Shown in pieces: positions 25,602-47,078 of a stretch of 47,078 nt of DNA (its first letter is position 1; every line of letters starts with the position of its first letter). Source of the stretch: Clostridia bacterium (GTDB taxonomy: Bacteria; Bacillota; Clostridia; Oscillospirales; CAG-272); the NCBI GenBank assembly GCA_017445085.1, contig JAFSUT010000107.1, forward strand, positions 1 to 47,078. The letters run 5' to 3'. The translations under genes and the position numbers were made by a program. The notes below the pieces were generated by a model that saw nothing but the letters and a program-made list of their open reading frames with translations, was not told the origin of the DNA and did not search any database.

Positions 25602-25675
25602 TGGGGATTTGTGTAATGGTAGCACTGCAGACTCTGACTCTGCCTGTGGGGGTTCGAACCCCTCATCCCCAGCCA
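25602..25675 (+). tRNA. tRNA-Gln (anticodon CUG), CCA encoded
   Basis: Hand-folded cloverleaf. Acceptor TGGGGAT/ATCCCCA with U1-A72; D arm GTGT-AATGGTA-GCAC; anticodon arm GCAGA-CTCTGAC-TCTGC; T arm GGGGG-TTCGAAC-CCCTC; then G-CCA. Confidence 0.9.
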
Positions 25676-38893: not shown

Positions 38894-39901
38894 CTAAGTG
38901 TCAAGTTGATAAAACAATTCATATCCGGCAAGCGTATCCATGCCGAAATATGCCAGGATCATATCGTAAGAAGTTTCTTTGATTTTTGCAAGCGTTTCTC
39001 TGCCGGCATAGCGCAGATCCACCATATCCACGTCAAAATCCCGGCAAAGATGCGGCACGAGCGCACAGCCGAAACTGTCGCAAAACATCAGCATCCGCCG
39101 TGCGTTGCCGTTTTCGATCCGCGTATATCCGCAAAGATAGCCGGGGAAAACGCCGTAAGCGTCGGCGTCACCTTTTTTGTCGAGATGATAGATTCGCTCG
39201 TCGCCGGCAAAGCGAAAGATCGCCAGCCGGTCGCCGCCGGGGAGAAGCATCTTGCGCGCCTCGCTCCCGACGAAATCGGCGTCCAGCACCTCGACGTGCG
39301 CATCACGCCTTGCGGTATAGCCGAGCGGCGCCTGCAACTGCCGGTACACCTCAAAGCTGCCAAGCGAGGTCAAATGATGGTCGCCGCGGTAGTAAACATA
39401 CTTGCCGCCGTCCGCCGCCGCACGCAAGATGGGACGCACGTCGACAAGCCCGACGCCGCCGCCTTTTGCCGCCGCCCAAAGCGACGGGCGCGCACAGGTG
39501 AAAAAGCGCGGCAGGTTTTTCGTTTGCACTTCGGCTTTGTTCGGCACGAGCACAGTTTGCAGCGGTATGCCGCGCTGTGCCGCATACGCCGACAGAAAAC
39601 CGAGATTGTTTGACAGCGTCCCTACGTCGGTCTGCGGGATAGAAAACAAATAGCCGTCCTTACCGCAGATCGCACCGCCAAACTCGTTTTGCGAGAGAAA
39701 GAGCGCCTTATCGCGCGAAAGCGTGAGCAGGGCGCGGCGCCCGGGCAAACGGTCAAAAAGAAAATCGTCGATCGCCGCATACGAAAACGCCGTATACGGT
39801 CGGTTTTCGTCGGCAAGCAGCGCGGGGGTCGGGCAAATGAAAATAAAGGCGACCGTCACGGCGCACAAAAGCAGGGTGAGGCAAAGCAATCTTTTTTCCA
39901 T
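38894..39901 (-). CDS. DHHW family protein (partner of the MBOAT acyltransferase)
   Basis: N-terminal signal anchor, YYRGDHHLTSLG (DHHW-type motif, here DHHL) and GAGGTGAG RBS. It starts 9 nt after the MBOAT gene. Confidence 0.7.
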   Translation of the reverse strand: MEKRLLCLTLLLCAVTVAFIFICPTPALLADENRPYTAFSYAAIDDFLFDRLPGRRALLTLSRDKALFLSQNEFGGAICGKDGYLFSIPQTDVGTLSNNLGFLSAYAAQRGIPLQTVLVPNKAEVQTKNLPRFFTCARPSLWAAAKGGGVGLVDVRPILRAAADGGKYVYYRGDHHLTSLGSFEVYRQLQAPLGYTARRDAHVEVLDADFVGSEARKMLLPGGDRLAIFRFAGDERIYHLDKKGDADAYGVFPGYLCGYTRIENGNARRMLMFCDSFGCALVPHLCRDFDVDMVDLRYAGRETLAKIKETSYDMILAYFGMDTLAGYELFYQLDT

Positions 39902-39909
39902 TTCTCACC

Positions 39910-41175
39910 TCAAAATGCGGCGTAGAGGAAAGGTTTGTGCCCGCCCGCCAAAAGATCGCAAAGCCCCACGCAAAACAAGCAGACCGCCACGCCGTAACGC
40001 ACAAGCAGCGGCGTTTTCCAAAGGCGCACGGTAAGTTCTGAAAGTCCCCCGCGGCTGATGAAAAACGAAAGCAGAAATAGCGGCAAAAGGCGAAAAAAAT
40101 GATACAGATCGCTTGGCAAAAACAGGGGGCGCGCACCGAGACAAAAGAGATACGAGAAAAAAGAAGCGGCGGACTGCGGCGTTGGACACAGAAAAAAGAC
40201 AAAGCCGAGCCAAACGCAAAGCAGAGTGCCGACGTTGCCGATCCCGCGACCGCCAAAGACAAGTTTTTCGGCGGCGGAGAGCAGAAAGAACCACGCGCCC
40301 CATAAAAGATAGCAAACAGACGTCCCGTGCCAAAGCGACGAGCAGAGCCAGACCGCAAACAGAGAAAGCAGCGTCCTTGTCCGCCCGCATCGACTGCCGC
40401 CGAGCGGCAGATAAACGTAGGTATAGAGGAGTTTCCCAAAACTTATGTGCCAGCGGCGAAAAAAATCGCTGACCGAACGCGCCGCATACGGATGATCAAA
40501 GTTTTGCGGCAGGTTGATCCCAAACATCTCGGCAAGTCCGCGCGCCATATCGGTGTACCCGGAAAAATCAAAGTAAAGTCCGAGGCAAAAGGCGCTGAGC
40601 GTTGTCCACGCGCCGAGCGCGCTTGCGGGCGGCGACGTGCGTGCGACCGCCGCGTACAAAACGTCGGCAAAGGCACATTTTTTGAAAAAACCGACGGCAT
40701 ACAGCACAAGCCCGTCAAACCGGCGGCGGGTGTCGCACGCCGGAGAAAACGAAAAGGCGGGGAGAAGTGCGACCGGTCCCATCCAAAGCGAGGGAAATGC
40801 CATAAGATAGATCGCGCCGTCTGTCGGGGACAGCCGTTTTCTCTCCCCGTAAAACGCATACGCCGCGGCACGCAAAAACAAAAAGGACAGTCCGCCGCAG
40901 GAAAACGAACACAAGCGGCACATGACCAGCGCACAAAACGCAGGCAACACCGCAAGATAACGCGTGTGCGAGAGCGCCAGCGTGAGCGCCGTGACAAGGA
41001 GCAGGATCAGTGCGGACGCGCCGCCGAACGCCAAAAACGAAAACAAAACGCTTACAAAGAGAAAAGCCGCGGCGCGGCGGCGCACGGGTACCGCCGTATA
41101 CAAAAGCGCCGCAAAAGGCAAAAACAGGAGAAAGAATGACGGAGAGACGAGTGTCACGACGATCCTCACTTTCAT
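39910..41175 (-). CDS. MBOAT family O-acyltransferase (AlgI/DltB-like)
   Basis: Polytopic membrane protein with FFRRWHISFGKLLYTYVYLPLGG and SSLWHG (conserved MBOAT His). Confidence 0.8.
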   Translation of the reverse strand: MKVRIVVTLVSPSFFLLFLPFAALLYTAVPVRRRAAAFLFVSVLFSFLAFGGASALILLLVTALTLALSHTRYLAVLPAFCALVMCRLCSFSCGGLSFLFLRAAAYAFYGERKRLSPTDGAIYLMAFPSLWMGPVALLPAFSFSPACDTRRRFDGLVLYAVGFFKKCAFADVLYAAVARTSPPASALGAWTTLSAFCLGLYFDFSGYTDMARGLAEMFGINLPQNFDHPYAARSVSDFFRRWHISFGKLLYTYVYLPLGGSRCGRTRTLLSLFAVWLCSSLWHGTSVCYLLWGAWFFLLSAAEKLVFGGRGIGNVGTLLCVWLGFVFFLCPTPQSAASFFSYLFCLGARPLFLPSDLYHFFRLLPLFLLSFFISRGGLSELTVRLWKTPLLVRYGVAVCLFCVGLCDLLAGGHKPFLYAAF

Positions 41176-42299: not shown

Positions 42300-43106
42300 A
42301 TGAAAAACTATAAGATCATCGACGCGCATTGTCATATCTATCCGCAAAAAATCGCGCTGAAAGCGGTGCATGCCACCGACCTTTTTTATGAAATGCCGCA
42401 CGCCTCCCCCTACGACGGCACGACCGACACCCTGCTTGCCGTGCAGAAAGAAAGCGGGATCGCCCGTTTTATCGTCCAGTCGGTCGCAACGACCCCGCAT
42501 CAGGTACACAGCATCAACACCTTTGTCGCCGCCGAAGTTGCCGCACACCCCGACACCTTTACGGGGCTCGGCACCCTGCATCCCGACAGCGAACATATCG
42601 AAGAGGACGTGGAAGAGATCATCTCCCTCGGTCTGCACGGGGTAAAACTCCATCCCGATATCCAAAAATTTGCCGTGGATGACAAAAAATGTCTGCCGAT
42701 CTACGAGTGCTGCCGCGGACGACTGCCGATTTTGATGCACACCGGCGACAAGCGATACGACTTTTCCAACCCGAACCGCCTTTTGCGCGTTCTGCACGCC
42801 TTTCCGGATCTCACGATCGTCGGCGCGCACCTCGGCGGCTGGTCGATTTGGGAAGAAGCCTCCATGACGCTGACCGATATTGACAATCTCTACGTGGACA
42901 CCTCGTCCACCATCGGATTCATCGGCTTTGAAAAGGCGCGCGAGTGCATCCGCCGCTTTCCACCCGAAAAACTGCTGTTTGGCACCGACTACCCCATGTG
43001 GCGCCCGCAGGATGAAGTGACGGCGCTCCTTGACATGGACTTTACCGACGACGAATACGAAAAAATCTTCCATGCGAATGCAGAAAAGGTGTTTAGCATT
43101 CGTTAA
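42300..43106 (+). CDS. amidohydrolase-2/TIM-barrel metal-dependent hydrolase family protein
   Basis: N-terminal IIDAHCHIYPQ (HxH metal motif), with later ILMHTG, GAHLGG and FGTDYP. Confidence 0.7.
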   Translation: MKNYKIIDAHCHIYPQKIALKAVHATDLFYEMPHASPYDGTTDTLLAVQKESGIARFIVQSVATTPHQVHSINTFVAAEVAAHPDTFTGLGTLHPDSEHIEEDVEEIISLGLHGVKLHPDIQKFAVDDKKCLPIYECCRGRLPILMHTGDKRYDFSNPNRLLRVLHAFPDLTIVGAHLGGWSIWEEASMTLTDIDNLYVDTSSTIGFIGFEKARECIRRFPPEKLLFGTDYPMWRPQDEVTALLDMDFTDDEYEKIFHANAEKVFSIR

Positions 43107-43111
43107 TCCAT

Positions 43112-43150
43112 CAAAAAAGGCGGCTTACTTTGCCGCCTTTTTATATTTTT
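43112..43150. terminator. bidirectional terminator closing both the amidohydrolase gene and the rSAM operon
   Basis: An 8-bp stem (AAGGCGGC at 43117..43124 with GCCGCCTT at 43132..43139) is flanked by A6 and T-rich runs. The 3' arm overlaps the last codons of the rSAM gene. Confidence 0.75.
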
Positions 43151-44483
43151 CGTAGGCTTTCAGCATCTGCCGTTCGATCCGGTTTTGCCTTAAAAACTTA
43201 TCCGCTTTTCCGCAAACCAACGGCTCGTCCGGACAGAGTTTGAGGCGATTACAGATCGGATAAAACGAACAGCCGCCGCACATTTCCGGCGTCTTTCCGG
43301 ACGCCGCAAATTCCAAAAACTGCGCGCGGTCGGTAATCCCGTTTTCCACATCGCCGATAAAATGATCCTCCGAATAGTGCTCGCATTTCCCGAGTTTGCC
43401 ATTTGGCAGGATAATCACCGCGTGCGGCGAATCCGCCATACATTTGGTAATCTTGTGCGCATCTTCGAGCATGTGAACGCCGAGCAGACGGTTCGCTTGC
43501 AATTTTTCCTCGAGCGCCGTCATATTTTTCGCCTGCAAAAGCTGTGCGTCATCATCGCCGGTGAATTTTTTGCGATCGGTATCAAAAAGCAGGTGCGTAT
43601 AGATGAAAAAACCTTTTTTGCCGCCGAAGCGCGCAACGAGTTCGTCAATGAGGAGCGAAAGATTTTGAAGATTCTGCGCGCTGACATTGAGGCGGATGGA
43701 AACCGAAATCCCCGCATCCAAAAGCCCGTCGATGTTCTCCATCACAATCCGATACGGGTTGCCTTCTTTATAAATATAGGCCTTGGAACGGTTATAAACT
43801 TCCTCGGTACCGTCCAGCGAAATCTGTACGCGGCGCAAATGCCAGCGTTCTTTGGCGTTGATCAAATTTTCGCCGCGCATCAGATAACCGTTTGTGACCA
43901 TGGTAGAGGCAAAGGTCACCCGCTCTTCGGACAGCCGGCGGGTAATATAATTTATGACCTCGGCATTGTAGAGCGGCTCGCCGCCGAACCATGCGAGAGA
44001 AATGCCGTTTTTCTTCTCTTTTTTGGTGCGCAAAATAAAGCGCACGACTTTTTCCGCGGTTTCCTGCGTCATCGATATGCGCGGGCGCCCCATCTCATAG
44101 CAATAATAGCAGCGTGCGTTGCAATCCATGGTGGTAAATATCCGATAGGCGGAAAAATATTCATCTCTGTTGACAAACAGACGCAAAAAGGCATAAAACT
44201 CATCCGCCAGCTTTGTCTCATCCTGCGCCTGTTCCACAAAATAATGCTTTTCTGCAAAGGGGCGGATCGCCGCATCGCCCGCGGCATGGGTTTCGGTCAG
44301 CAATGCCGCTTCTGCGGGAGAGAGCAACAAGAGTTCCTTTGTCAGCGCATGAAAACAAAGCACCCCGTCCGCGCACTTTGCAAAATGCAAAAAGGAACTC
44401 GGGCGAAGCAGCGTATCATCGGCAAAGGTCGGAGCGCCGATAAACTGCTTTGCGTTTTTTTCCATCGGTTGAATGATGACCAT
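43125..44483 (-). CDS. radical SAM/SPASM peptide maturase paralogue 2 (452 aa)
   Basis: CNARCYYC (C121/C125/C128, 44100..44123). SPASM pattern C-x13-G-x4-C (CMADSPHAVIILPNGKLGKC) plus CGGCSFYPICNRLKLC. A 120-aa N-terminal domain is present. ATG overlaps the upstream stop as TAATG. Confidence 0.85.
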   Translation of the reverse strand: MVIIQPMEKNAKQFIGAPTFADDTLLRPSSFLHFAKCADGVLCFHALTKELLLLSPAEAALLTETHAAGDAAIRPFAEKHYFVEQAQDETKLADEFYAFLRLFVNRDEYFSAYRIFTTMDCNARCYYCYEMGRPRISMTQETAEKVVRFILRTKKEKKNGISLAWFGGEPLYNAEVINYITRRLSEERVTFASTMVTNGYLMRGENLINAKERWHLRRVQISLDGTEEVYNRSKAYIYKEGNPYRIVMENIDGLLDAGISVSIRLNVSAQNLQNLSLLIDELVARFGGKKGFFIYTHLLFDTDRKKFTGDDDAQLLQAKNMTALEEKLQANRLLGVHMLEDAHKITKCMADSPHAVIILPNGKLGKCEHYSEDHFIGDVENGITDRAQFLEFAASGKTPEMCGGCSFYPICNRLKLCPDEPLVCGKADKFLRQNRIERQMLKAYEKYKKAAK

Positions 44484-45871
44484 TATTTTTCTTCCCCGTT
44501 TTCGCTTTGGGCCGCGCGCAGATAGCGCCGATAGACAAATCGGACAGCGTTTTCCAATTTGTGCAATCTTTCCGCTTTGTAAGATGCGTCGCATTCTGCC
44601 GGACCGTCGTCACGGCAATTTTTCAGCCGGATACAATCGGTGTAGATCGCACAGCCGCGGCAGTTCGCCGGTGAATTTGCGCGTTCCCGCCACATCGTTA
44701 CCGCCTCTTGCGAAAGGACGCCGTGTACCACATCCCCGCAAAGGCACCCTTCAGCGGCATGGTCGCACTTGGAAAGCTGCCCTTCCGGAAAAATCTGTAT
44801 CGCCGACGGATTGTCGGCAAGGCAGCGGCGCAGTTTGATATTGTTGCCGAGCGGATTTTCCCGTGCTATACCGAGTCGGCGGCAGTAGTTGTCAAACTCT
44901 ATAATGGCGTTGACAATCTCCGTGCGTCCATCCGCCGTGCGCACCGTGTTGATATTTTCACGATCCTCGTAGAGTCCCACGGCGTAAACGCCCAGATTTT
45001 CCGGCGAGCCGAAGCGTGCATAGAGTTCATCCGCCAGCGATTTTAACATGTCCATATTATGGCGGTCGATATTGACGCGCAGATACAAAGTGACGCCGGT
45101 CTCCAAAAGCAGACCGATATTCCGCATCACACGTTGATACGGGCTCGGATCATCCTTATATATATACGCTTTGCAGGTATTATAAATCTCTTCCGTACCG
45201 TCGAGAGAGATTTGTACGCGCATAAGATGCCACGCCTCCATCCCCTCCCGCACAATATCAGCGTCGAAAAGATAGCCGTTGGTATAAATTTCCGAAATAA
45301 AGTCCTGCCCCGCCGCCGTAAGGCGCCTGACAATCGTGCGGATTGCCTCGATATTGTAAAGCGGTTCGCCGCCGTGCCAGCGCAGCATAACGCGCTTGCC
45401 GTGTGCGTGTGCAAGAATATAATCGGCAACGGCATTTGCCGTTTTTTCGCTCATCGGCACGTGCCGCGCGATTCTGTCCGTTTCGTAGCAATAAAAGCAG
45501 CGCGCGTTGCAGTCATGCGTCACAAGAATCTGATAATCCAAAATCACGTCCGGCGTAGATTTTGCCGCCGCGACCAAAGCGCGCACGCGCTCTACCGTTT
45601 CATAAGCGTCAAACTCCGGCGCGACCAAATACCATTTCTCCGCAAACGTCCGCGCGAGCGCACCGCAAAAGCGGTTTCCCTGAAGAAAAGCCAATTCCTC
45701 CACGCTCAGGAGCAAAATCTCGCGCGTTAAAAGATTGGCGGCAAGGACATTTCCGTCCTCCGCCGTCACAAAAATGCAAAACGGACTCACGCGGTATTCC
45801 TTTTCCGCATCATATATCTGCACACCGAGCAACCGCGCCGCATAACCGGAAGCGCCTTTAATGATTTGCAT
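44483..45871 (-). CDS. radical SAM/SPASM peptide maturase paralogue 1 (462 aa)
   Basis: CNARCFYC (C121/C125/C128, 45488..45511). SPASM pattern CLADNPSAIQIFPEGQLSKC plus CRGCAIYTDCIRLKNC. GGAGGAG RBS. The start overlaps the upstream gene by 14 nt. Confidence 0.85.
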   Translation of the reverse strand: MQIIKGASGYAARLLGVQIYDAEKEYRVSPFCIFVTAEDGNVLAANLLTREILLLSVEELAFLQGNRFCGALARTFAEKWYLVAPEFDAYETVERVRALVAAAKSTPDVILDYQILVTHDCNARCFYCYETDRIARHVPMSEKTANAVADYILAHAHGKRVMLRWHGGEPLYNIEAIRTIVRRLTAAGQDFISEIYTNGYLFDADIVREGMEAWHLMRVQISLDGTEEIYNTCKAYIYKDDPSPYQRVMRNIGLLLETGVTLYLRVNIDRHNMDMLKSLADELYARFGSPENLGVYAVGLYEDRENINTVRTADGRTEIVNAIIEFDNYCRRLGIARENPLGNNIKLRRCLADNPSAIQIFPEGQLSKCDHAAEGCLCGDVVHGVLSQEAVTMWRERANSPANCRGCAIYTDCIRLKNCRDDGPAECDASYKAERLHKLENAVRFVYRRYLRAAQSENGEEK

Positions 45872-46610
45872 TTTTCTCCTCCGCTTTGATGCCCGCATAC
45901 GCTGTTTCTGCGGCGGACACATCCATATTGCACTGCATACAATAGACCGGAACGGCCGCAAGCATACGATCCAGATATTCGAGCTGCTTTTGCAGGTCAG
46001 CCGAATTTTCCACTTCGATCTGCCCAAGCAAAAACGGAACGGCCTCCTCCACGGGAATCTTTTTGAAATGATTTTCCGCGCCGCGCCGGAGCAGTAAAAT
46101 ACCGGCGAGCTTTACGCTTGACGCCGTATGATAGTGTTCTTTGCCGCACCAAGGCGTGCCGTAACCGTAAATACCGTCCTCCGTGAGGCGAAAAATCGGC
46201 TTGTCGCCGTTGATGACGTGCACATTCTCTTTGCCGAACGCTTTTTGCCAAAGCAGCATATGCGTCGTTTTCCCGGTGCCGCTTTTGGCGGTAAACAAAT
46301 ATCCTTTGCCCTCATATTCAATCAAAACGCCGTGCATCACAAAAGCGCCGTATTGCAAAATCATATTGTTGATTTTGCGATGCAGAGCGTTGAGCTCGAC
46401 CAAGGCTATGTTTTTGTGCGCCGTGCGATCGCGCGTGTGGTCGGGATCAAAAAACTCAAATTCCCTGTCGATATCCCCTTGCGTGACCGTGATCGTAAAA
46501 TCCGCCCGCTCCGCCGTGCTTTTGAAGGCCTTGAAATCAGACAGATGGTTAAGAAGGAACGGATGCACAAGTTGAATATCTATATGAAAACCGCCGATAG
46601 AATAAAGCAT
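45858..46610 (-). CDS. HPr-kinase/phosphorylase-C-terminal-like P-loop protein (250 aa)
   Basis: HGVLIEYEGKGYLFTAKSGTGKTTHMLLW parallels the HprK/P core (HGVLv..G.GvLitG.SG.GKSE.AL). Walker A lies at 46266..46289. GGAG RBS. Confidence 0.6.
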   Translation of the reverse strand: MLYSIGGFHIDIQLVHPFLLNHLSDFKAFKSTAERADFTITVTQGDIDREFEFFDPDHTRDRTAHKNIALVELNALHRKINNMILQYGAFVMHGVLIEYEGKGYLFTAKSGTGKTTHMLLWQKAFGKENVHVINGDKPIFRLTEDGIYGYGTPWCGKEHYHTASSVKLAGILLLRRGAENHFKKIPVEEAVPFLLGQIEVENSADLQKQLEYLDRMLAAVPVYCMQCNMDVSAAETAYAGIKAEEKNANH

Positions 46611-46686
46611 ATGTACTCCGTGAAAATAAAAATGATTCGTACTTATCTATAGTTTCTCACCGTTTCCGTGAGAGATTTTACTTGTT

Positions 46687-46713
46687 GAAAAAGGCGGGAT
46701 AAACCCGCCTTTC
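46687..46713 (-). terminator. intrinsic terminator/attenuator between the precursor peptide gene and the maturase genes
   Basis: The minus strand reads AGGCGGG-TTTAT-CCCGCCT followed by TTTTC, starting 17 nt after the peptide stop codon. Confidence 0.7.
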
Positions 46714-46729
46714 TCTGTTTTCAGCCAAC

Positions 46730-46855
46730 TTAGATCATGTACTCGCAGCCTGCGAACGGATCGTCGTCACCGCAATCTTCCTCACAGCTACTGGTCATGA
46801 TGAGAGCCGTCATCTCAAGGGATACGAGCTCAGCTTCAGGTGCTACATATTTCAT
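46730..46855 (-). CDS. 41-aa candidate RiPP precursor peptide MKYVAPEAELVSLEMTALIMTSSCEEDCGDDDPFAGCEYMI
   Basis: Hand-translated and absent from the ORF track because it is shorter than 60 aa. ATG 46855 lies 8 nt after GGAGGA (46869..46864); TAA stop at 46732..46730. It has its own consensus promoter and sits directly upstream of the rSAM/SPASM genes. Confidence 0.75.
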   Translation of the reverse strand: MKYVAPEAELVSLEMTALIMTSSCEEDCGDDDPFAGCEYMI

Positions 46856-46899
46856 GTGAATAATCCTCCGAAATTCAATATCCCATATTACGTGTCTAT

Positions 46900-46928
46900 A
46901 GTATAGCAATCTTTTTGTCTAATGTCAA
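46900..46928 (-). promoter_or_regulatory. near-consensus sigma-A promoter of the peptide operon
   Basis: The minus strand reads TTGACA (46928..46923), 17 nt ending in TGc, TATACT (46905..46900). Confidence 0.7.
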
Positions 46929-46963
46929 TACATTTTTGAAATTTTATTCTTGATAGATTTCTT

Positions 46964-47078
46964 TTAATTCTTTTTGCCGATGGAGATCAGCCGCAGGATA
47001 ACGGGGGCGAGGACGAGGTTGACCGCAAGTTCGATGATAAAGTTGACGCCGGCAAGTCCGAGGAACATATAGCCGGCA
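46964..47078 (-). CDS. 3' end of a hydrophobic membrane protein gene (partial)
   Basis: The open frame reads ...AGYMFLGLAGVNFIIELAVNLVLAPVILRLISIGKKN with TAA at 46966..46964. The family cannot be assigned from 37 residues. Confidence 0.4.
   Translation of the reverse strand, partial: AGYMFLGLAGVNFIIELAVNLVLAPVILRLISIGKKN

What the first reader, a model, noticed from the sequence alone, without database searches (positions are those of the whole stretch)
46730..46855. Unannotated 41-aa precursor candidate with a hydrophobic/acidic leader and a CxxDCxDDD...GC core
Hand translation gives MKYVAPEAELVSLEMTALIMTSSCEEDCGDDDPFAGCEYMI. The gene has the best expression signals in the window: a consensus -35, TGnTATACT, and GGAGGA at optimal spacing. 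The first 20 or so residues (YVAPEAELVSLE, MTALIM) look like a leader that could bind an RRE as a beta-strand. The last 18 residues hold all three Cys (C24, C28, C37) among seven Asp/Glu, with no Lys or Arg. There is no GG or GA cleavage motif. The Cys-Asp spacings (C24-x2-D27; C28-x1-3-D30/31/32) recall the Cys-X3-Asp thioether sites of the ranthipeptide freyrasin. The E38-Y39 C-terminus also leaves room for PQQ- or mycofactocin-style C-terminal chemistry. The peptide's sequence family is unknown to me.
Basis: partly seen in the sequence, partly recalled or inferred. Interest (0 to 1): 0.8.

Follow-up and report, generated by a model that had tools for sequence, protein, structure and literature searches.

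The report
Kinase-plus-radical-SAM modified peptide precursor
The 41-codon gene is real and almost certainly encodes the precursor of a modified peptide in an uncultured gut Clostridia bacterium. It is followed by an HPr-kinase-like enzyme and two radical SAM enzymes, a combination I found described nowhere.

Summary
The ORF is on the minus strand (46730-46855), with a near-consensus extended -10 promoter, a GGAGGA Shine-Dalgarno and a conserved hairpin just after the stop. A 74%-identical homologue keeps the frame: 15 synonymous-only against 8 non-synonymous codon changes, with in-frame indels.

The peptide opens an operon: precursor, an HprK-like P-loop protein ("ScmC-like"), then two RRE-radical SAM-SPASM maturases whose closest solved structure is the thioether synthase CteB.

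The leader (KYxAPxAE...hydrophobic x3-x-S) belongs to a family of about 30 peptides found next to ScmC-like genes. It carries the YxxP...Ser signature of lasso and "linear polyphosphorylated peptide" (LPP, 2026) leaders. In LPPs an HprK-like kinase phosphorylates exactly that serine.

Cores are hypervariable and acidic. Only two of the three Cys are conserved. Across the family Cys is followed by Asp/Asn at +3 (16 of 26 Cys, 4.4 expected), which fits C24-D27 and C28-D31 here.

Best reading: a hybrid RiPP with Cys-X2-Asp thioether ring(s) plus phosphorylation of junction Ser22. The chemistry is inferred, not shown. The PQQ/mycofactocin idea is not supported. Novelty: new variant of known kinds.

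The parts
46900..46928 (-). Sigma-70-type promoter: TTGACA, 17 nt spacer, TG-n-TATACT (extended -10)
   Evidence: 11 of 12 matches, TG present. The -35 hexamer, the TGCTAT part of the extended -10 and the spacing are conserved in L001.
46864..46869 (-). Shine-Dalgarno GGAGGA, 8 nt upstream of the ATG
   Evidence: Sequence read; conserved in L001.
46730..46855 (-). Precursor peptide gene, 41 aa plus TAA stop
   Evidence: The frame is conserved with 15 synonymous-only against 8 non-synonymous codon differences.
46790..46855 (-). Leader, residues 1-22 (MKYVAPEAELVSLEMTALIMTS). Y3-x-x-P6 lies at 46838-46849. The family-conserved Ser22 codon lies at 46790-46792.
   Evidence: Leader HMM hits in about 30 loci and alignment A4: Y3 and P6 conserved in at least 90% of sequences, Ser22 column in at least 70%. 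The YxxP...S motif of LPP leaders is described in PMC13381572. The leader/core boundary is inferred.
46733..46789 (-). Core, residues 23-41 (SCEEDCGDDDPFAGCEYMI). C24-E-E-D27 lies at 46775-46786, C28-G-D-D31 at 46763-46774 and C37 at 46745-46747.
   Evidence: Hypervariable across homologues. Cys-X2-Asp/Asn enrichment.
46690..46712 (-). GC-rich hairpin 17 nt after the stop, followed by a T run. Probable partial terminator between the precursor gene and the enzyme genes.
   Evidence: listed on the + strand; the stem is palindromic. One search gives a 12-bp stem within a fold of -32.8 kcal/mol, z = -5.5. It is 100% conserved in L001 while the flanks diverge.
46651..46677 (-). Second hairpin in the intergenic spacer
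   Evidence: partly conserved in L001.
45858..46610 (-). ScmC-like protein, 250 aa, with an HprK/P-like P-loop kinase fold. H93, the P-loop S110-G-T-G-K114-T-T-H, and N134-G-D136-K-P are invariant.
   Evidence: AF2 model pLDDT 93.5. Foldseek best match HprK/P, E 6e-7, prob 1.0, TM only 0.35-0.5. Motif MHG...SGxGK aligns to HprK/P His140/Lys161. PF27840 ScmC (weak). TIGR04249 at 20.8 bits, far below its cut-off of 125.
44483..45871 (-). Radical SAM/SPASM maturase 1, 462 aa. Overlaps the ScmC-like gene by 14 nt.
   Evidence: CNARCFYCYE motif plus the SPASM cysteines.
43125..44483 (-). Radical SAM/SPASM maturase 2, 452 aa, with an N-terminal RRE-like beta-sheet and helices
   Evidence: AF2 model pLDDT 89.7. 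Foldseek shows a full-length match to CteB 5why/5wgg (E 2.5e-15, 456 aligned columns) and to TigE.
43114..43142 (.). Bidirectional terminator-like hairpin closing the operon, shared with the convergent amidohydrolase gene

Best explanation
The ORF encodes the precursor of a ribosomally synthesised, post-translationally modified peptide (RiPP). It is the first gene of a four-gene operon: precursor, HprK-like kinase-fold protein, radical SAM/SPASM 1, radical SAM/SPASM 2.

Shown here:
- The gene is under coding selection and has strong expression signals.
- A conserved hairpin separates it from the enzyme genes, as expected if the precursor is made in excess.
- Its N-terminal 22 residues belong to a conserved leader family with a YxxP motif and a conserved Ser.
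- Its C-terminal part is hypervariable, acidic and Cys-bearing.
- The partner enzymes have the folds named above.

Inferred:
1. The YxxP leader is bound by the RRE-like N-terminal domains of the two radical SAM enzymes. No discrete PqqD protein is encoded in the operon.
2. The radical SAM enzymes make intramolecular thioether bonds from Cys sulfur to a carbon of the residue three positions downstream. C28 to D31 is the conserved site, C24 to D27 a second site in this strain, and the partner of C37 is unknown. The presence of two enzymes suggests two different sites or linkages.
3. The HprK-like protein phosphorylates, perhaps repeatedly, the conserved junction Ser22 (or Ser23). This follows LppK acting on Ser3 of LPP cores. 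The peptide has no Ser or Thr downstream of residue 23 and no C-terminal Ser.
4. The leader is removed, and the very anionic product exported, by proteins encoded elsewhere.

The product's role is unknown. It is unlikely to be a cationic membrane-active bacteriocin. Sibling loci point to the cell surface.

The confidence of 0.6 is for the whole statement. That it is a genuine RiPP precursor for this operon I put at about 0.85. That both thioether formation and Ser phosphorylation occur as described I put at about 0.45.
For: Coding and expression.

Leader family and YxxP/Ser conservation. Every precursor I found next to a ScmC-like gene has Ser at Y+19 or Y+20. The LPP consensus YxxPxVLxHQxIxFETxxS places its phosphorylated Ser at Y+18 (PMC13381572).

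Kinase fold and catalytic His/Lys.

LPP-like gene sets: ScmC-like homologues in other Clostridia sit with PqqD, an SpI/SipW-like peptidase, an MsbA-like ABC transporter and NTP_transf_5.

Radical SAM enzymes: RRE-rSAM-SPASM architecture. CteB is the closest solved structure by sequence and by fold. The best NCBIfam hits are all Cys-peptide maturases.

Cys-X2-Asp/Asn: 16 of 26 Cys against 4.4 expected, 0 of 5000 shuffles. P0248, found later, adds C-Y-F-D and C-A-D-D.

Cys goes with the radical SAM gene: all 10 distinct loci with a radical SAM gene have at least one Cys in a core. The syntenic locus L004 has neither a radical SAM gene nor a Cys.
Against: - No chemistry was observed; everything about the modifications is by analogy.
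- Neither radical SAM enzyme reaches any curated family cut-off. The best are 121.6 bits (FlmE/OhkG, cut-off 500), 117.3 (TIGR04463, cut-off 525) and 104 (PapB, cut-off 340).
- The N-terminal domains gave no significant profile match to the discrete PqqD proteins.
- The HprK-like protein keeps only three of the four His-Lys-Asp-Asp residues reported essential in lasso kinases: NGD136, a single Asp. It was not compared directly with LppK.
- The spacing and sequence between YxxP and Ser differ from the LPP consensus.
- Cys37 has no Asp/Asn at +3.
- One locus (L012) has a Cys in the core but no radical SAM gene in 9.5 kb.
- The operon has no leader peptidase or exporter.
- The Cys-X2-Asp/Asn statistic rests on 14 related peptides that I selected.
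Confidence: 0.6

Rival explanations
1. A thioether (ranthi- or sacti-type) peptide only. The ScmC-like protein is not a peptide kinase. It could be an ATP-binding scaffold or leader-binding chaperone for the radical SAM enzymes, or it could act on another substrate.
For: The family hit is to ScmC of the SynChlorMet cassette, a protein with no function given in its family name that accompanies two radical SAM/SPASM enzymes. One of the four catalytic residues of lasso kinases is missing. The operon lacks a discrete RRE, so some protein may have to present the leader.
Against: H93, the complete P-loop, D136 and about 20 further residues are invariant over 30 diverse homologues, which suggests catalysis. 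Homologues sit in LPP-type gene sets where the kinase role is experimentally established for LppK (PMC13381572). Locus L004 has a precursor and a ScmC-like gene but no radical SAM gene, so ScmC-like has a job of its own.
Confidence: 0.2
2. The radical SAM enzymes perform chemistry other than thioether formation, such as C-C or C-O cross-links involving Phe34/Tyr39, epimerisation, or Cys-to-formylglycine-type oxidation.
For: RRE-rSAM-SPASM enzymes of similar fold make cyclophanes, ethers and epimers. SuiB, anSME and TigE are also among the fold matches. No curated family threshold is reached.
Against: Cys co-occurs with the radical SAM gene, and the Cys-X2-Asp/Asn motif is strongly enriched. 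Aromatic residues are not conserved among cores. The best sequence and structure matches are thioether synthases.
Confidence: 0.12
3. A redox-cofactor precursor of the PQQ or mycofactocin type that uses the C-terminal Glu38-Tyr39.
For: An E-Y pair lies near the C-terminus. Radical SAM/SPASM enzymes with an RRE also occur in those pathways.
Against: E-Y is conserved only in the 74%-identical homologue. The close relative P0245 ends ...SCNEMGDFL. PqqE does not appear among the 25 best families listed for either enzyme, and the closest cofactor-family hit, the quinohemoprotein amine dehydrogenase maturase, scores about 48-58 bits against a cut-off of 453. The operon has no PqqB/C/D or MftB/D/E-type genes.
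Confidence: 0.02
4. Not a product at all: a short regulatory leader ORF or a structured 5' leader RNA controlling the downstream enzyme genes.
For: The ORF is followed by two hairpins before the next gene.
Against: The substitution pattern shows coding constraint. The SD is strong. The leader/hypervariable-core layout is shared by about 30 peptides. No Rfam match was found. The hairpin after a precursor gene is usual in RiPP operons (own knowledge).
Confidence: 0.03

Closest known systems
Linear polyphosphorylated peptides (LPP; lppA-K-B-S-D-N of Paenibacillus alginolyticus; Popov et al., Nat Commun 2026, PMC13381572)
   Same: The precursor has an N-terminal YxxP RRE-binding motif, a conserved Ser about 19 residues downstream and a hypervariable C-terminus. 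An HprK-like kinase-fold protein is encoded next to the precursor. Homologues of the window's kinase-like protein in other Clostridia sit in full LPP-like gene sets: PqqD, SpI-like peptidase, MsbA-like ABC transporter, NTP_transf_5.
   Different: The window operon has no discrete RRE, SpI-like peptidase, exporter or NTP transferase. It has two radical SAM/SPASM enzymes instead. The core is short, Cys-bearing and acidic. The leader sequence between YxxP and Ser differs, with Ser at Y+19 rather than Y+18. The LPP paper mentions neither radical SAM enzymes nor Clostridia.
Ranthipeptides: freyrasin/PapB (Cys-X3-Asp beta-thioethers) and SCIFF/thermocellin CteB (Cys-Thr gamma-thioethers)
   Same: RRE-radical SAM-SPASM maturase. 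CteB is the closest solved structure. The core is acidic with Cys followed at a fixed short distance by Asp.
   Different: The motif is Cys-X2-Asp/Asn, one residue shorter. There are one to three motifs rather than six repeats. The enzymes are far below the PapB and SCIFF family cut-offs. There are two paralogous maturases (35% identical), and a kinase-like partner is not a described feature of ranthipeptide clusters (own knowledge).
SynChlorMet (SCM) cassette of TIGRFAMs/NCBIfam (ScmC, PqqD-like ScmD, radical SAM/SPASM ScmE and ScmF)
   Same: The architecture is the same: small peptide, ScmC-type protein and two radical SAM/SPASM enzymes. It is the only named family the 250-aa protein hits.
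   Different: Scores are far below the cut-offs: ScmC 20.8 against 125, ScmE about 43 against 400. There is no ScmD. As far as I know (own knowledge) the SCM cassette has no assigned chemistry. My text search for ScmC, SynChlorMet or 'SCM cassette' found no occurrence of 'SynChlorMet' or 'SCM cassette' among the listed hits, and every listed 'ScmC' hit was an unrelated acronym.
Phosphorylated lasso peptides (paeninodin PadeK/ThcoK)
   Same: YxxP leader; Thr two residues before the probable core start (T21); an HprK-like tailoring kinase that acts on the linear precursor.
   Different: The operon has no lasso cyclase and no B2 protease. Those kinases phosphorylate a conserved C-terminal Ser, whereas this peptide ends in Ile.

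Membership tests
LPP (linear polyphosphorylated peptide) BGC | Precursor leader with the YxxP RRE-binding motif and a conserved Ser (consensus YxxPxVLxHQxIxFETxxS) | tested here: inconclusive
   Y3-x-x-P6 and the family-conserved Ser22 are present. However, Ser lies at Y+19, not Y+18, and the intervening residues do not follow the consensus.
LPP (linear polyphosphorylated peptide) BGC | HprK-like kinase (LppK) | tested here: inconclusive
   HprK/P fold and the His/Lys signature are present. I did not look for the LppK sequence, so orthology was not tested. One Asp of the H-K-D-D motif is missing.
LPP (linear polyphosphorylated peptide) BGC | Discrete RRE (LppB) and SpI-like leader peptidase (LppS) | tested here: not met
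   Neither is encoded in the operon or its flanks. Both are present beside ScmC-like genes in many other Clostridia loci.
LPP (linear polyphosphorylated peptide) BGC | MsbA-like exporter and NTP transferase | tested here: not met
   Absent from the gene calls and Pfam assignments around the operon.
LPP (linear polyphosphorylated peptide) BGC | Multiple phosphorylation of the Ser | not testable with these tools
   Needs mass spectrometry.
Ranthipeptide (PapB/freyrasin type) | PapB-family radical SAM/SPASM maturase (NF047865, cut-off 340 bits) | tested here: not met
   77 and 104 bits.
Ranthipeptide (PapB/freyrasin type) | Repeated Cys-X3-Asp motifs in the core | tested here: not met
   Asp/Asn is enriched at +3 (16 of 26) but not at +4 (5 of 26, 4.1 expected).
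Ranthipeptide (general: non-alpha-carbon thioether) | S-to-C-beta or C-gamma thioether made by an RRE-rSAM-SPASM enzyme | not testable with these tools
   The enzyme architecture is met. The linkage needs MS/NMR.
SCIFF / CteB | TIGR03974 maturase (cut-off 425) and a six-Cys-in-45 precursor | tested here: not met
   52-54 bits. The precursor has 3 Cys and no SCIFF family hit.
SynChlorMet cassette | ScmC (TIGR04249, cut-off 125), ScmE/ScmF radical SAM enzymes and ScmD (PqqD-like) | tested here: not met
   ScmC 20.8 bits; ScmE 43 bits against 400; no ScmD. Only the gene architecture resembles it.
Lasso peptide | Asn-synthetase-like lasso cyclase and B2 transglutaminase-like protease | tested here: not met
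   No such genes in the operon or its flanks.
PQQ / mycofactocin precursors | Conserved C-terminal Glu...Tyr (PqqA) or Val-Tyr (MftA), with PqqE or MftC | tested here: not met
   The C-terminus is not conserved among relatives. Neither PqqE nor MftC is among the 25 best families listed for either enzyme.

The most novel reading that the evidence does not exclude
This would be a previously undescribed RiPP class of gut Clostridia in which one YxxP-type leader directs two unrelated chemistries to one short, hyper-acidic core. Radical SAM enzymes would make Cys-X2-Asp/Asn thioether rings, and an RRE-less HprK-like kinase would (poly)phosphorylate the junction Ser. In sibling loci the cores match the C-terminal tails of co-encoded S-layer-homology proteins. 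That would imply that the mature peptide acts at the cell surface, either by mimicking or competing with those tails or by sharing their processing, rather than as a conventional bacteriocin.
Probability: 0.3. Interest if true: 0.75.

Novelty: new variant of a known kind. Interest (0 to 1): 0.6.

Why it matters
HprK-like "ScmC" proteins occur in at least 588 of the GTDB species-representative genomes searched, nearly all gut and rumen Clostridia. Those with a source name are labelled only "hypothetical protein".

Linking them to the newly described LPP phosphorylation pathway gives a testable function for a large unannotated family. This operon also shows the same leader logic recruited to radical SAM thioether chemistry.

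If confirmed, it would add three things:
- a Cys-X2-Asp/Asn ring type to the ranthipeptide repertoire;
- the first phosphorylated radical SAM RiPP;
- a lead to why peptide cores copy the tails of S-layer-homology proteins in related loci.

The four-gene operon is compact, about 3.8 kb, and suits heterologous expression.

Tried and rejected
Searches that gave little:
- The word-indexed search with the 41-mer found only itself and one homologue.
- An exhaustive profile search found only two further small peptides. The other hits were large proteins matched several times over on the acidic part of the query; I did not inspect their sequences.
- A back-translated core pattern found nothing in GTDB genomes.
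- A back-translated leader pattern found 8 metagenome stretches, 5 of them genuine.
- Pfam and NCBIfam have no model for the peptide.
- Profile-profile comparison of the radical SAM N-termini with discrete PqqD proteins was not significant. The RRE assignment therefore rests on the AF2 model and its full-length match to CteB.
- No protein in the window carries a C-terminal tail like the core, so the SLH-tail phenomenon is not visible in this genome fragment.

Literature:
- Searches for ScmC/SynChlorMet, FlmE/OhkG/CefB, and HprK plus radical SAM returned nothing relevant.
- The PMC id I tried for the Haft and Basu 2011 paper is not held.

Readings rejected: lasso peptide, PQQ/mycofactocin precursor and untranslated leader RNA, for the reasons given under rivals and membership.

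Weak point: two closely related radical-SAM-only precursors lack the junction Ser (L096, L105) but a third keeps it (L098). A link between that Ser and ScmC presence is therefore only weakly supported.

Full report
**1. Observation**

The ORF is real but lies on the minus strand, at 46730-46855.

Upstream signals:
- TTGACA, 17 nt, TG-n-TATACT at 46928-46900, scoring 11 of 12. It is the best promoter-like site in the 43000-47078 stretch scanned; the rest of the window was not scanned.
- GGAGGA at 46864-46869, 8 nt before the ATG.

Seventeen bases after the stop lies a 12-bp GC-rich hairpin followed by T residues, then a second hairpin. The 96-nt spacer folds at -32.8 kcal/mol, z = -5.5. No Rfam family matches the region.

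**2. Is it a gene?**

Identical copies lie on contigs from two other metagenome samples. A 74%-identical, 45-aa homologue lies on a fourth: P0002/L001, MKKYMAPEAELLDLELTALIMASVTPVEEEECGDDDPFAGCEYMI.

Codon by codon, the two genes show 19 identical codons, 15 synonymous-only changes and 8 non-synonymous changes. The indels are 3 and 9 nt. Much of the promoter (the -35 hexamer and the TGCTAT of the extended -10), the SD and the first hairpin are conserved, the hairpin at 100%. Cys24 is replaced by Glu in the homologue, so only Cys28 and Cys37 are conserved.

**3. Neighbours**

Three genes follow on the same strand, tightly packed with overlapping stop and start codons.

*A 250-aa protein (45858-46610).*
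- It hits only ScmC of the SynChlorMet cassette, weakly (TIGR04249, 20.8 bits; PF27840 weak).
- Its AF2 model (pLDDT 93.5) matches HPr kinase/phosphorylase best, then ATP-dependent PEP carboxykinase (Foldseek E 6e-7, probability 1.0, TM-scores only 0.35-0.5).
- The family profile aligns MHG...SGtGKt to the HprK/P signature [24 protein letters not shown]. That equates H93 with His140 and K114 with Lys161.
- H93, the P-loop, N134-G-D136-K-P, GTPWxGK and other residues are invariant in 30 diverse homologues.
- Lasso-peptide kinases need a His-Lys-Asp-Asp tetrad (PMC9266682). Here only one Asp is kept.

*Two radical SAM/SPASM proteins (462 and 452 aa).*
- They are 35% identical to each other and carry CNARCFYCYE and a full SPASM cysteine set.
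- Neither reaches any curated family cut-off. The best hits are all Cys-peptide maturases: TIGR04463, CefB, FlmE/OhkG, Clo7bot and PapB.
- The closest solved structure is the thioether synthase CteB, by sequence and by fold. The rSAM2 model (pLDDT 89.7) aligns over 456 columns to 5why/5wgg at E 2.5e-15 and TM 0.63-0.67, and also to TigE.
- That alignment includes the N-terminal beta-sheet and helices typical of an RRE.
- A direct profile comparison with discrete PqqD proteins was not significant.

*Flanks.* Upstream is an ECF-transporter S component, cut by the window end. Downstream is a convergent amidohydrolase behind a bidirectional terminator.

**4. The leader family**

ScmC-like proteins are common: 479 word-search hits and at least 588 of the GTDB species-representative genomes searched, almost all gut or rumen Clostridia MAGs.

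An HMM built from small ORFs next to these genes recovers about 30 peptides. The peptides share:
- a conserved leader of the form K-x-Y-x-x-P-x-(A or hydrophobic)-E..., then three hydrophobic residues, x, and Ser;
- Tyr and Pro conserved in at least 90% of sequences;
- Ser at Y+19 or Y+20 in every ScmC-linked precursor;
- a hypervariable, acidic C-terminal part.

Even a locus whose ScmC-like protein is very similar to the window's (L101; 293 bits over the 166 residues on the contig) has a different core, GGEEEEEESCNEMGDFL.

**5. Link to known biology**

Popov et al. (Nat Commun 2026, PMC13381572) described linear polyphosphorylated peptides (LPPs) in Bacilli. Their features:
- precursors with the leader YxxPxVLxHQxIxFETxxS;
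- an HprK-like kinase LppK that adds up to four phosphates to the Ser of that motif (core Ser3);
- a discrete RRE, LppB;
- an MsbA-like exporter and an NTP transferase.

Many of my Clostridia loci carry just that set around the ScmC-like gene: PqqD, a Peptidase_S24/SipW-like protein (sometimes fused to ScmC-like), an ABC exporter and NTP_transf_5. So the ScmC-like family is the clostridial counterpart of the LPP/lasso tailoring kinases. The conserved Ser is therefore the best candidate phospho-acceptor.

In the window peptide this is Ser22. There is no Ser or Thr after residue 23 and no C-terminal Ser, which excludes the paeninodin mode. That paper mentions neither radical SAM enzymes nor Clostridia. 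A text search for HprK together with radical SAM and RiPP found no paper.

**6. The window's subfamily**

Leaders beginning MKY(T/V)AP occur in loci ordered precursor, (SLH protein), ScmC-like, (radical SAM), with no discrete PqqD and no SpI-like peptidase.

All 10 distinct loci with a radical SAM gene have at least one Cys in a core:
- the window (two radical SAM genes);
- L084, L088, L089/L010, L009, L011, L095, L013, L014 and L100.

L004 is syntenic with L013 and L014 but has no radical SAM gene and no Cys. L012 is an exception: one Cys, no radical SAM gene seen.

Across 14 non-redundant cores, Asp or Asn lies three residues after Cys in 16 of 26 cases. Within-peptide shuffling predicts 4.4, and none of 5000 shuffles reached 16. 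No other offset from -4 to +6 is enriched. P0248, found afterwards, adds two more cases, C-Y-F-D and C-A-D-D.

In the window, C24-E-E-D27 and C28-G-D-D31 fit; C37-E-Y-M does not. The motif is one residue shorter than freyrasin's Cys-X3-Asp.

The same radical SAM family is very large, with at least 2914 proteins at E < 1e-20. It also occurs without ScmC-like, beside a discrete or fused PqqD and similarly led, Cys-bearing peptides, on contigs attributed to Prevotella and on one with a Bacteroidales-like gene context.

**7. Mechanism proposed**

The shown and inferred steps are separated under Best explanation. In short:
- The precursor is strongly transcribed, and the hairpin probably limits read-through into the enzyme genes.
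- The RRE domains of the two radical SAM enzymes bind the YxxP leader.
- Thioether rings form between Cys and the residue at +3. C28-D31 is the conserved one. The second enzyme probably serves C24-D27 or C37.
- The HprK-like protein phosphorylates Ser22 or Ser23.
- Leader cleavage and export use proteins encoded elsewhere.

The product would carry about nine negative charges before phosphorylation. Metal binding or a surface or matrix role is therefore more plausible than membrane attack.

**8. Verdict**

The finding is a genuine, unannotated RiPP precursor. The cofactor idea is not supported. The kinase partner and the LPP/lasso-type leader are the main additions.

The operon is not a member of any defined family (see the membership table). 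I rate it a new variant combining two known kinds. Interest is moderate to high.

Noticed in passing
L004:1724-2773, L013:486-1552, L007:229-1274, L014:3386-4636, L005:4971-5987, L012:3636-4556: In the loci closest to the window's, an SLH-domain secreted protein (about 260-290 aa) lies between the precursor and the ScmC-like gene. It ends in a tail nearly identical to the C-terminus of the small precursor of the same locus. Examples: L004 ...GNNMGGSDDL in both; L013 NNSMGDEEL against NNSMGDVEL. So a leader-bearing peptide and a signal-peptide-bearing surface protein share a 'core'. The window has no such protein.
   Followed up: partly
L084:2051-8738 compared with window 43125-46855: The nearest ScmC-like homologue (55% identity) sits in the same chromosomal slot, just upstream of the same amidohydrolase, MBOAT, ALGX and RecG genes. 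Its cluster is rearranged: a 586-aa protein, a 52-aa precursor-like ORF, a 1284-aa dockerin protein, a 42-aa precursor (MKYVAPKAVALELALADVVLTSPEALPEIECIGDQLPLEWDC), one radical SAM gene, then ScmC-like. The locus behaves as a variable island.
   Followed up: partly
L015-L034, L086:7348-9447 and many others: The commonest context of ScmC-like genes in gut Clostridia is a four-gene module: a 217-aa membrane protein (no Pfam), ScmC-like, PqqD, and an SpI/SipW-like peptidase. It has no radical SAM gene, and I found no YxxP-type precursor within 6 kb. The substrate of this module is unknown.
   Followed up: no
L096:2032-3845, L103, L105, L098:1545-3351: Radical SAM enzymes about 40% identical to the window's occur on contigs attributed to Prevotella, and on one with a Bacteroidales-like gene context. 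They have a discrete or C-terminally fused PqqD domain and similarly led peptides (for example MKKKYFAPEMEEVKVDEVVVLDNVVEPSKEKIADECDDDGEA), beside dockerin-containing proteins and without ScmC-like.
   Followed up: partly
L014:71-3376, L012:4636-9480, L005:1179-4952, L089:2721-6854: Very large proteins (1100-1950 aa) with no significant Pfam match in the one member scanned (L014) precede the precursor in several sibling loci. They share a conserved C-terminal motif (...Y-S-D-A-A-K-A-L-F or ...NYCNKAAAYFAK).
   Followed up: no
window 38894-41175 (-): An MBOAT membrane acyltransferase and an ALGX/DHHW-type protein form a pair next to recG. This suggests an O-acylation system for a surface polymer. 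It is syntenic in L084.
   Followed up: no
window 25602-25672 (+): This is the only Rfam match at gathering score in the whole window: one tRNA gene.
   Followed up: no
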